From Candidatus Freyarchaeum deiterrae (GTDB taxonomy: Archaea > Asgardarchaeota > Jordiarchaeia > Jordiarchaeales > Jordiarchaeaceae), in NCBI GenBank assembly GCA_037305845.1, contig CP147778.1:1472001-1536000 (forward strand): DNA of 64,000 nt. Reading direction: 5' to 3'. The notes beneath the pieces were generated by a model. That model did not search any database, was not told where the DNA came from, and saw only the letters and a list, made by a program, of their open reading frames with translations. The translations under genes and the position numbers were made by a program. How positions within the stretch are numbered: position 1 is the stretch's first letter; every line of letters begins with the position of its first letter. Shown here in pieces: positions 1-28,739 of the stretch.

Positions 1-465
1 TGTTCCGATGATTAATGTGCGCTGAAATCCACAGGGAACTGATCCATCGAGATAGTTTTTTCGTAGGATGTGCAATTCGTCTATTACCTTTGCATTAAAC
101 AGGAGTGAAATTTCAATACCTATGTCTATCGCTTCTTGGGAGATGTCAAAAGGAGGTGTTTGATGCTTGCAGGTGTTCTACATGCAAGTTTCATCTATCT
201 CATATGTGCAGTTAACATCATTAAATCCTTCATATACGATAGTACGTCCTTTTTCATACTCAACTAGCATTGCTTCATCATACTTCCCCATCTCACCTAA
301 TACTGGTCTAAAATATCTCTTAACTAGAAATTCGGGTTCATCGGTTTTTAGAATTGGCTGACAGAGACAGAATAGTTTGCGATTGGTTAGAAGCTCCTGG
401 TGAATTTCAATTCCTGCCTTGAATCCTAGTTTTTCGTATTCTAGCTCCAATAGAACCGCCTCCAA
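1..465 (-). CDS. gatE: Glu-tRNA(Gln) amidotransferase subunit E, 5' part (runs off window start); interrupted by a 30-nt BHB intron at 160..189; exons 465..190 and 159..<1
   Basis: GFKAGIEIHQEL..KLFC motif; after intron removal reads CTYEIDE|TPPFDISQEAIDIG...LHILRKNYLDGSVPCGFQRT, matching GatE/GatB motifs. Start may be the TTG at 450. Confidence 0.92.
160..189 (-). other. BHB-type mRNA intron in gatE (30 nt, contains in-frame TAG)
   Basis: Minus strand GATG-AA|A-CTTGCA-loop-TGCAAG-CATC-AA|A: 4-bp helix GATG/CATC between two 3-nt bulges. Confidence 0.88.
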
Positions 466-640: not shown

Positions 641-2248
641 TTGGAAACCACGGCTTCTCTTAAAAATATGCAAAAAATGGCTTGCAGGGAAATAATAGAG
701 CAGGTTCTAAACAATAAGGAAATGAACGAGGAGCTAAACAAATTAAAAATAAAAATTTGCCAGAAATATCACCTAAATAAGGTTCCTAGGAACTCGGAGA
801 TTCTTAGCTATGCCTCGGAACAAGAGAGACAATATCTGCTACCCCTCTTAAGAAAGAAGAGAACACGTACAATTTCAGGTATCGCCATCGTAGCCGTAAT
901 GTCTAAGCCGGCACCCTGCCCCGGTACTTGTATCTACTGCCCTGGAGGTACCATCGCTCCGAAATCCTACTCAGGGCATGAGCCAGCAGCCATGAGAGCT
1001 ATTCAGAATAATTTTGACCCATACTTACAGGTAAAATCTAGGATTAAACAACTAGGAGCAATCGGCCACAGGGTTGACGGAGGCAAAATAAAGCTCGTGG
1101 TAATGGGTGGAACATTTCTTTCTCTCCCAATAGATTATCAGCATTACTTTGTACAAAGATGCCTTGATGCAATAACCGATATTTCTTCAGATACACTGGA
1201 TGAAGCAAAAAGAAATGCAGAACATTCTCGTACTAGAAATGTGGGAATAACTTTCGAAACACGCCCTGATTATTGCAGAGAAAAGCACGTCGATAACATG
1301 CTCAATATGGGGGGAACTAAAGTGGAAATTGGAGTTCAAACTGTTTACGATGATATTTACAAACTTGTTCACAGAGGCCACACTGTACAAGATGTGGTAG
1401 AAGCTTTTAGGATAGCTAAGGATTCGGGTCTCAAGGTTACAGCGCACCTTATGCCTAATCTTCCGGGATCAGATTATAGTAGAGATTTGGATATGTTCAA
1501 AACCATCTTTGATGATCCAAGGTTTAAGCCCGACAGCCTGAAGATTTATCCTTGTTTGGTACTTGAAGGCACGCCTCTCTACGATTTGTATATTAAAGGT
1601 GAGTATAGCCCTTACACGACGGATGATATCGTCAAACTTGTTGCTGAAGCTAAACGTATAATTCCAAAATGGATCCGTATTCAACGTATTCAAAGAGATA
1701 TACCTTCAAACCTAATTGTTTGCGGTGTGAAGAATGGCAATCTAAGGGAGTTAGCCGCTGAGGAGCTGGCAAGAAGGGGGTATAAATGTCAATGTATACG
1801 TTGCAGAGAAGTAGGTCATGTATCGCAGAGAAATCCGAATCTTTTACAAGGGGCAGAAGTGTTTTTACACACTGAGAGCTACTCTGCATCGGAAGGGGAA
1901 GAAGTGTTTGTATCCTATGAAAATAAGGATAGAAGTATTTTAGTAGGGTTTTTAAGACTTAGACGACCATCAGATTTGGCTCATAGACCTGAGATTCGAA
2001 ATTGTGGGTCAATGGTTGTTAGAGAATTGCATGTTTATGGTCCACTTGTACCCGTTCATGAAAAGCCAAGGGATGAATGGCAACACCGGGGATACGGTAA
2101 AAATTTACTAAGTGAAGCCGAAAAAATTGCCAGAGAAGATTATGATGCAAAAAAGCTCCTAGTTCTCTCTGGCATAGGAGTTAAAGAGTATTACTATAAA
2201 CTGGGATACAAACCTGATGGCATCTATGTTTCAAAAAAATTAAAATAG
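641..2248 (+). CDS. elp3: Elp3 tRNA U34 carboxymethyltransferase (radical SAM + KAT)
   Basis: CPGTCIYCPGG, MGGTF, ETRPD, LKIYP, QRIQRDIP, VRELHVYG, QHRGYG motifs. Confidence 0.96.
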   Translation: METTASLKNMQKMACREIIEQVLNNKEMNEELNKLKIKICQKYHLNKVPRNSEILSYASEQERQYLLPLLRKKRTRTISGIAIVAVMSKPAPCPGTCIYCPGGTIAPKSYSGHEPAAMRAIQNNFDPYLQVKSRIKQLGAIGHRVDGGKIKLVVMGGTFLSLPIDYQHYFVQRCLDAITDISSDTLDEAKRNAEHSRTRNVGITFETRPDYCREKHVDNMLNMGGTKVEIGVQTVYDDIYKLVHRGHTVQDVVEAFRIAKDSGLKVTAHLMPNLPGSDYSRDLDMFKTIFDDPRFKPDSLKIYPCLVLEGTPLYDLYIKGEYSPYTTDDIVKLVAEAKRIIPKWIRIQRIQRDIPSNLIVCGVKNGNLRELAAEELARRGYKCQCIRCREVGHVSQRNPNLLQGAEVFLHTESYSASEGEEVFVSYENKDRSILVGFLRLRRPSDLAHRPEIRNCGSMVVRELHVYGPLVPVHEKPRDEWQHRGYGKNLLSEAEKIAREDYDAKKLLVLSGIGVKEYYYKLGYKPDGIYVSKKLK

Positions 2249-10629: not shown

Positions 10630-11672
10630 CTATTGGGTTTTTTCTTCTTTGTGTTTTTTCCATAGTGAGGGGTAGGTTCCGGGTTCCATTAGTACTCTGT
10701 CTACTTCTACTGCGATTCCGTGATTTGAAGAGTACATTTCTTCGCTGCTCATTTTTGAGCTGCCTAAAGCTACTGCTTCATTTTTGAGTGTGAAAATAGC
10801 AACAAGGTTCCTTACACCTATTTCGCTCTCTAGCTTTACTATTCCTGGGACTGTTAGGTTGGCGCCATGGCAGATAGAGTCCACGGCTGAGTCGCGTATG
10901 AATATTTTGGGTATGTGTTCTAATGCCTTTTCCATGGGTTGTATTATGTTTCTTAAGAAGGATTCATCTCCATCTTCCTTCCAAAAATGGTAAGCATCAA
11001 TAACATCATGCAGGTTTGCAAGAGTATCTTCTTTGAAAGGCCCGGTTCGGGTTCGTCTGAGTTCTTTCATATGGGCGCCGCAGCCCAAGATTTCACCAAT
11101 ATCGTGGCAGAGCTTTCTTATGTAGGTACCCGCCTCGCAACCAACGCGAAGAAGCCCGTTTCGAGCCTCCATCTCTTTTAATTCAATATAGTATATTTCC
11201 CTAATTCTAAGTCTTCTTCTAACGGAGGAGCGGAGTGGTGGGCGTTGATATATTGGCCCTACGAGCTCATTTACAACGTTCCTGAACTTCTCTTCTGGCA
11301 CGTCGCCGTGTAGTTGAATGACGCAGACGTATTCTTTCCCCGCCGGAAGAAGAGTCTGAACCACTTTGGTTGCTGATTCCAAAGCTACAGGGAGTACCCC
11401 GGTGACTTTGGGATTTCACTACTCCTCGCAAAATGCTAGAGGAGTTCTAGTGTCCCAGAGTGACCCGCCTTTTGAATATTGAGAATTTTTTTAACCCAGC
11501 TAACTACTTCATGCGAAGTTGGGCCAGGGGGCTTATCCACATTGATTATACCATTTTTTATGTATTCTTCTATTGGGCGTTGGTTGGGTGGGGTTCCATA
11601 CGTGGGGTCTGAAGTTGCTTCGGCTTTTTCAATTAATTCTCTTTTCTTGTCACTTGGTAAAAAGTGGTCCAT
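10630..11672 (-). CDS. cbf5: H/ACA pseudouridine synthase Cbf5 (TruB family), split by a 32-nt BHB intron; exons 11672..11447 + 11414..10630 = 336 aa
   Basis: [11 protein letters not shown], spliced [25 protein letters not shown] domain. Confidence 0.95.
11415..11446 (-). other. BHB mRNA intron in cbf5 within the catalytic Asp codon
   Basis: GGGA-CACT-AG|A-ACTCCTC...GAGGAGT-AGTG-AA|A-TCCC: strict BHB. Confidence 0.95.
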
Positions 11673-28389: not shown

Positions 28390-28739
28390 CTATTCTACCT
28401 TAAGTGGAAACGTGTAAATTCTACATAGAGCCACTGCTTTCCAAGGGTCCAGCAACCCCTGCTTCTGTTGATAATCTTTTCTTGCCTTTTCTTCCCTCGC
28501 TTCAATGCAACTTTTGCACCGAGGATGCCTCGGATCGATTAGCCCAGCCTGCGGCTGTGTGGCCCTTCACATGAAGCGCAGTGAAGCATTAGAACAGGCA
28601 GATTTTCACTGATTTCTATGCGAAAATACTCGTTGCCATCAAACTCATCCTTAAAATCGGGCCAAATTCCGTAAAGATTCTGAGACTCAAGAACTTCTTT
28701 TAAACGAATGAATATTTTTTCGAAACTCGTCATCTCCAT
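28390..28739 (-). CDS. small Cys-rich conserved protein (109 aa), split by a 20-nt BHB intron; exons 28739..28559 + 28538..28390
   Basis: Spliced product ...LHCASCEGPL DPRHPRCKSCIEARE...WKAVALCRIYTFPLKVE*; the unspliced frame stops inside the intron. Confidence 0.8.
28539..28558 (-). other. BHB-type mRNA intron (20 nt)
   Basis: GGCC-AC|A-CAGCC-GCA-GGCTG-GGCT-AA|T. Confidence 0.82.

What the first reader, a model, noticed from the sequence alone, without database searches (positions are those of the whole stretch)
160..189. BHB intron in gatE (Gln-tRNA amidotransferase)
The ORF track stops at ...YEIDETCM*, but a clear GatE continuation follows (TPPFDISQEAIDIG...RKNYLDGSVPCGFQRT). The intervening 30 nt, ACTTGCATGTAGAACACCTGCAAGCATCAA, form GATG/CATC helix + AAA bulges + CTTGCA/TGCAAG stem and carry an in-frame TAG. 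Excision yields DETPP, matching the conserved DEEPP motif. GatE is normally required for Gln-tRNA synthesis in archaea, so decay is unlikely. The exon-side helix is only partly paired, which implies a relaxed-specificity EndA. I am not aware of a described gatE intron.
Basis: partly seen in the sequence, partly recalled or inferred. Interest (0 to 1): 0.88.

Follow-up and report, generated by a model that had tools for sequence, protein, structure and literature searches.

The report
tRNA-type mini-intron in Asgard gatE
The only gatE gene of this Asgard archaeon (needed to make glutamine-charged tRNA) is split by a conserved 30-base intron of the kind normally cut out of tRNAs, so the message very probably has to be cut and rejoined, something I found in print for only one other archaeal coding sequence; no RNA data could be checked here.

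Summary
Confirmed. gatE (minus strand, starts at window 450) carries a 30-nt insert at 189-160 with an in-frame TAG. Removing it at the standard BHB cut sites gives a continuous 634-aa GatE; 119 intronless homologues gap exactly 10 residues there. The genome length matches the complete Freyarchaeia (Asgard) genome. All 11 genomes of its order carry a 29-35-nt insert at the same site. Of 13 predicted pairs, 7 show compensatory changes, one linking an exon wobble base to an intron base. The 29-, 31- and 35-nt versions shift the frame, which argues against read-through. Two other Asgard lineages have unrelated BHB inserts at the same site (51 nt) or 5 nt upstream (35-41 nt). GatD is adjacent and intact, there is no GlnRS or second gatE, and the EndA has an Aeropyrum-like specificity loop. 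My genome scan found about a dozen more such inserts (cbf5, selD, pcm, hacA and others). The scan noted this intron before in another genome, and similar introns in many Asgard genomes. Verdict: a real EndA-type mRNA intron, a new variant of the cbf5 kind.

The parts
190..450 (-). gatE exon 1, 87 codons from a TTG start, with GGAGG about 10 nt upstream; contains the conserved GxEIHQ motif and ends GAT GAA (D-E)
   Evidence: Matches NF003107 positions 3-88; called as a separate 90-aa 'hypothetical' protein in databases; upstream sequence
192..195 (-). Exon strand of the 4-bp central helix (GATG), followed by the 5' bulge AA^A (191-189)
160..189 (-). 30-nt BHB (HBh') intron: A + hairpin (188-166, with the in-frame TAG at 180-178 in its loop region) + CATC + AA
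159..165 (-). Intron strand of the central helix (CATC, 165-162) and the 3' bulge AA^A (161-159)
1..159 (-). Start of gatE exon 2 (TPPF...). It runs off the window's left edge to genome position 1470516 (547 codons); gatD follows directly
   Evidence: Matches NF003107 positions 90-628; gatD intact
11415..11446 (-). Second BHB intron in this window: 32 nt in cbf5, between the first and second base of the Asp codon of GTLDP, as in Crenarchaeota
   Evidence: position compared with PMC2738675

Best explanation
The insert is a tRNA-type intron in the gatE message. In the pre-mRNA the intron folds into a hairpin, and its 3' end (CAUC) pairs with the last exon bases (GAUG), leaving two 3-nt AAA bulges on opposite strands. 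The two-subunit splicing endonuclease EndA cuts after the second base of each bulge, and an RNA ligase (RtcB, by analogy with archaeal tRNA splicing) joins GAU GAA to ACA CCU, giving full-length GatE. Unspliced RNA yields only a 90-aa fragment. Shown: the anatomy, the exact gap, the conservation and covariation, and the presence of the enzyme genes. Inferred: cleavage, ligation and the identity of the ligase. It is one of at least a dozen such coding-sequence introns in this genome.
For: Exact 10-residue gap against 119 intronless homologues and the solved structure 2D6F. Same-site insert in 11 of 11 genomes of the order plus further contigs, 29/30/31/35 nt long, the stop being TAG, TGA or TAA. 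In 13 distinct versions 98.2% of cells pair, 7 of 13 pairs change on both sides, 0 of 500 shuffles reach this, and slid registers give 13-52%; RNAalifold finds the same structure unaided. The Asp wobble base of exon 1 (T/C) covaries with the intron base A/G in 5 sequences. Both exons show purifying selection, and the intron changes less than third codon positions (7-37% against 25-72%). Unrelated inserts in two other lineages also form BHB motifs that restore the motif. No GlnRS, one gatE, intact gatD; in archaea GatCAB serves only Asn-tRNA (PMC2943598). Two EndA paralogues; the catalytic one is closest to Aeropyrum pernix and keeps the K-P-K loop.
Against: The exon-side helix is missing. Folded with 15-60 nt of flank at 37 C, the central helix is only 14-23% populated (72% with 8 nt). 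One relative has a mismatch in the central helix. The 13 sequences are related, so the shuffle control overstates significance.
Confidence: 0.93

Rival explanations
1. The ribosome hops over the hairpin (translational bypassing, as recalled for T4 gene 60 and yeast mitochondrial byps), taking off at ACT (Thr) and landing on ACA (Thr) 30 nt on, with no RNA cutting.
For: In this genome a Thr-to-Thr hop would give the same protein, and AAAC is repeated at both ends of the insert.
Against: In relative G006 the insert starts with ATG, so no matched codon exists. The Atabeya-type gatE inserts and the cbf5, alba, porA, tyrS and pcm inserts split a codon and have no productive hop. Bypassing does not explain the conserved exon-intron helix or the invariant 3-nt bulges.
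Confidence: 0.03
2. The stop is read through or recoded, and GatE carries a 10-residue insertion.
For: The insert is a multiple of three in this genome and in most relatives.
Against: Relatives have 29, 31 and 35 nt at the same site, which shift the frame. The stop varies (TAG, TGA, TAA) and some versions have two stops. None of 119 homologues has an insertion in the DETPP motif.
Confidence: 0.015
3. gatE is a split gene giving two polypeptides (a 90-aa piece and a re-initiated piece), or a pseudogene, or an assembly error.
For: Databases annotate it that way: a hypothetical protein plus 'GatE, partial' starting inside or after the insert.
Against: The break lies inside a near-invariant motif; the apparent start differs between relatives; both parts are under purifying selection; the insert recurs in many independent assemblies with a conserved structure; no substitute pathway was found.
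Confidence: 0.025

Closest known systems
cbf5 pre-mRNA intron of Desulfurococcales and Sulfolobales (Watanabe 2002; Yokobori 2009, PMC2738675)
   Same: Short (16-44 nt), ORF-less intron inside a conserved coding motif; BHB-like junction cut after the second base of each bulge; two-subunit EndA of the Aeropyrum type.
   Different: Another gene (gatE, part of the translation supply chain), another phylum (Asgard), a junction between codons rather than inside one, little exon-side helix, and many genes per genome instead of one. Splicing was shown for cbf5 but is only inferred here.
Non-canonical tRNA introns of Freyarchaeia and Atabeyarchaeia (PMC11291895; bioRxiv 10.64898/2026.10.13.758758)
   Same: Same organisms, same motif classes, same enzyme. 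The lineages in which I found gatE introns correspond, by my inference from genome sizes and record titles, to the tRNA-intron-rich classes, which also differ in intron positions.
   Different: Those papers treat tRNA genes only; text searches of both showed no mRNA introns.
BHB intron in the 5' UTR of Haloferax volcanii HVO_1309 (PMC7714728)
   Same: An mRNA processed by EndA at a BHB motif.
   Different: It lies outside the coding sequence, so the reading frame does not depend on it.

Membership tests
Archaeal EndA-spliced (BHB) intron | 4-bp central helix between the exon end and the intron end | tested here: met
   GATG/CATC; 98% of cells paired in 13 versions, with an exon-intron compensatory change
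Archaeal EndA-spliced (BHB) intron | Two 3-nt bulges on opposite strands; cutting after the second base restores the product | tested here: met
   AAA/AAA invariant; excision gives the exact homologue length and motif
Archaeal EndA-spliced (BHB) intron | At least one outer helix (intron-side h' or exon-side h) | tested here: met
   h' present, 6-11 bp, covarying; h largely absent, so class HBh' as defined in the preprint
Archaeal EndA-spliced (BHB) intron | Full strict hBHBh' motif with an exon-side helix | tested here: not met
   Exon pairs .|.|||.| with a mismatch next to the bulge; not required for membership, and many cbf5 introns are also unconventional
Archaeal EndA-spliced (BHB) intron | Host encodes EndA (here two-subunit, with a specificity loop) and a ligase | tested here: met
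   Two paralogues; the catalytic one aligns to 3P1Z at E 8e-43, loop included; an rtcB-like gene is present, itself interrupted
Archaeal EndA-spliced (BHB) intron | The intron is removed from RNA in the cell, by EndA | not testable with these tools
Translational bypass element | Matched take-off and landing codons in all versions | tested here: not met
   Possible here (ACT/ACA) but absent in G006 and in most other inserts
Group I / group II self-splicing intron or other Rfam RNA | Ribozyme core of hundreds of bases matching a family model | tested here: not met
   30 nt only; no credible Rfam match

The most novel reading that the evidence does not exclude
These Asgard lineages run tRNA-type splicing as a routine step of protein-gene expression: a dozen or more unrelated genes per genome, several of them essential (gatE, tyrS, cbf5, rtcB), carry EndA-dependent mini-introns. 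The gatE DE-TPP region took up such an intron more than once (two junctions 5 nt apart, three separate branches of the GatE tree), which would make it an insertion hot spot where the exon already supplies half of the motif.
Probability: 0.75. Interest if true: 0.87.

Novelty: new variant of a known kind. Interest (0 to 1): 0.72.

Why it matters
In the papers I could search, cbf5 is the only archaeal coding sequence known to be spliced. A conserved, obligatory intron in gatE, beside about a dozen others in one genome, would make mRNA splicing an ordinary process in a branch of the archaea closest to eukaryotes. It bears on how protein-spliced introns arise and spread, and it gives a tractable case of repeated intron gain at one site. 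It also explains mis-annotated 'partial' and 'hypothetical' genes in these genomes. Public RNA data for this very genome exist, so the claim can be tested directly.

Tried and rejected
Protein searches for a junction-spanning Jordarchaeia GatE found none among the hits listed (lengths 354-1127 and 52-168 aa; 169-353 aa not searched). My first genome-wide BHB scan was too loose (121 true against 153 mirror-geometry hits). The relaxed-motif scan showed no clear enrichment overall, so only strict candidates and those with family support are counted. No donor for the intron in the genome: best other match 20 of 30 bases. Rfam and sigma-70 promoter scans were uninformative. The GatE tree is the quick version only and test_one_clade was not run, so the number of gains is not proven. 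G048 and G110 looked split but are contig breaks. Read-through, bypassing, split gene and pseudogene were considered and rejected as above.

Full report
What is there. The minus strand of window 450-190 encodes 87 codons of GatE and runs into T-C-M-stop; the same frame resumes 30 nt after the exon end and continues off the left edge of the window. Removing 189-160 gives an open frame of 634 residues. The two parts match adjoining stretches of the GatE model NF003107, positions 3-88 and 90-628. gatD follows directly and is intact. The genome is one contig of 3,576,204 bases, the length published for the complete Freyarchaeia genome from wetland soil (PMC11291895). Related loci are titled Jordarchaeum, Jordarchaeia and Freyarchaeota.

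The gap is exact. In an alignment with the best protein hits, all 119 full-length homologues lack exactly the ten insert codons, between D-E (or D-D) and T-P-P. The solved M. thermautotrophicus GatE shows the same ten-residue gap. The only close hit (93%) is an annotated 'partial' GatE that begins inside the insert.

The structure. The last exon bases GATG pair with CATC near the intron end, each strand is followed by an AAA bulge, and the rest of the insert is a hairpin. Cutting after the second base of each bulge gives precisely the boundaries that homology demands. Such a 30-nt motif arises at 4 of 300,000 random positions and in none of 100,000 shuffles. The exon-side helix is poor, so the class is HBh'. 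Thermodynamic folding with longer flanks puts the central helix at only 14-23% occupancy. That is a caution, and may mean that enzyme binding or folding during transcription matters.

Relatives. All six genomes of the genus and all five of the sister family are interrupted at the same base, as are further contigs. Lengths are 29, 30, 31 and 35 nt, and the stop is TAG, TGA or TAA. Across 13 distinct versions 98.2% of cells pair, seven of 13 pairs change on both sides, and neither shuffles nor slid registers come near; RNAalifold predicts the same structure. The most telling pair joins the synonymous third base of the exon's Asp codon to an intron base: U-A in 7 versions, C-G in 5. The sequences are related, so these counts are not independent events. 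Both exons differ from relatives mostly at third codon positions, and the intron is more conserved than those positions.

Other lineages. Among 282 genomes of the phylum with a match, most listed rows show an intact gene; 155 weaker matches were not listed. Two further lineages are interrupted. G288 has an unrelated 51-nt insert at the same junction with the same GATG/CATC helix. G021, G031 and G041 have 41-, 41- and 35-nt inserts 5 nt upstream, inside the Asp codon, with a fuller exon helix. G021 and G031 are closed 2.8-Mb genomes, which fits the published Atabeyarchaeia genomes (inference). In a quick GatE tree the three groups sit in separate branches among intronless genes. Repeated gain is the simplest reading, but it was not tested formally.

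Why it must be removed. The genome has one gatE, no GlnRS above the family cut-off, and a gatB. Archaea lack GlnRS and use GatCAB only for Asn-tRNA (PMC2943598), so Gln-tRNA should depend on GatDE. Exon 1 holds strongly conserved residues.

The machinery. There are two EndA paralogues. One keeps the catalytic motif region and is closest to the A. pernix catalytic subunit, including the loop with K-P-K where A. pernix has K44-P45-R46, which is linked to broad substrate range. Similar loops are present in Asgard genomes without the gatE intron, so the enzyme permits the intron but does not explain where it occurs. An rtcB-like gene lies 19 kb away and carries a 29-nt insert of its own.

Not an isolated case. 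A genome-wide scan for strict BHB motifs whose removal joins two coding frames gave 11 hits of 27-34 nt against 1 for the mirror-image geometry at the same thresholds. For cbf5, pcm, selD and hacA/leuC the two flanks map to adjoining positions of one family model. For alba, porA, tyrS, ahcY, endoQ and an OYE-family oxidoreductase the family hits are consistent with a single interrupted gene but do not reach both sides of the junction. The cbf5 intron in this window splits the Asp codon after its first base, as in Crenarchaeota, and recurs in G006, G021 and G033.

Rivals. Read-through fails on the frame-shifting relatives. Ribosome hopping is formally possible in this one genome (ACT to ACA) but not in G006 or in the codon-splitting inserts. 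Decay and assembly error fail on conservation and recurrence.

What is known. Five targeted paper searches and two broader ones found no gatE intron and no report of mRNA introns in Asgard archaea; the library omits most subscription journals. cbf5 and a Haloferax 5' UTR intron are the cases in print. Two papers describe very many tRNA introns in these lineages without mentioning mRNAs. Earlier notes of this scan report the same gatE intron in another genome and RNA-level joining for other Asgard genes; these are unchecked AI notes and I do not count them as evidence.

Verdict. The mechanism is known from cbf5; the gene, the phylum, the repeated gains and the multi-gene scale are new relative to what I found in print.

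Noticed in passing
window 11415-11446 (-): 32-nt strict BHB intron in cbf5 at the crenarchaeal position (inside the Asp codon of GTLDP). Also present in G006 (29 nt), G021 (41 nt) and G033 (26 nt); absent in G016 and G288. Either very old or gained repeatedly.
   Followed up: partly
window 28539-28558 (-): 20-nt BHB candidate in a CxxC-containing protein; removal joins two frames, but no family hit to validate it.
   Followed up: partly
L054 (genome 1452796-1452824, -): 29-nt insert with one central mismatch in an rtcB-like gene; removal restores PDAHQGYG, so the ligase may depend on its own splicing.
   Followed up: partly
L044-L053 (genome 987065, 1125569, 1589354, 1873137, 1876899, 2244134, 2285374, 2434689, 2458220, 2494680, 2636158): Further 28-34-nt BHB inserts in an HD-domain gene, alba, porA, tyrS, ahcY, pcm, endoQ, a conserved hypothetical gene, selD, an OYE oxidoreductase and hacA/leuC. 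Most interrupt a conserved motif.
   Followed up: partly
L068 (G288): A genome from another Asgard family has an unrelated 51-nt BHB insert at exactly the same gatE junction, while its cbf5 is intact. Taxon not named; binning not checked.
   Followed up: partly
L015, L018, L067 (G021, G031, G041): gatE inserts of 41, 41 and 35 nt lying 5 nt upstream of the junction studied here, splitting the Asp codon.
   Followed up: yes
whole genome G000: ARAGORN finds only 17 tRNA genes, several of them implausible, consistent with the published heavy tRNA-intron load (the paper reports 38 tRNAs).
   Followed up: no
window 641-2248 (+): An Elp3-family radical SAM/acetyltransferase gene is transcribed divergently from gatE, an arrangement kept in relatives.
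   Followed up: no
proteins P0011, P0124, P0126, P0136: Public annotation calls exon 1 a hypothetical protein and exon 2 a partial GatE, a systematic mis-annotation caused by the intron.
   Followed up: yes
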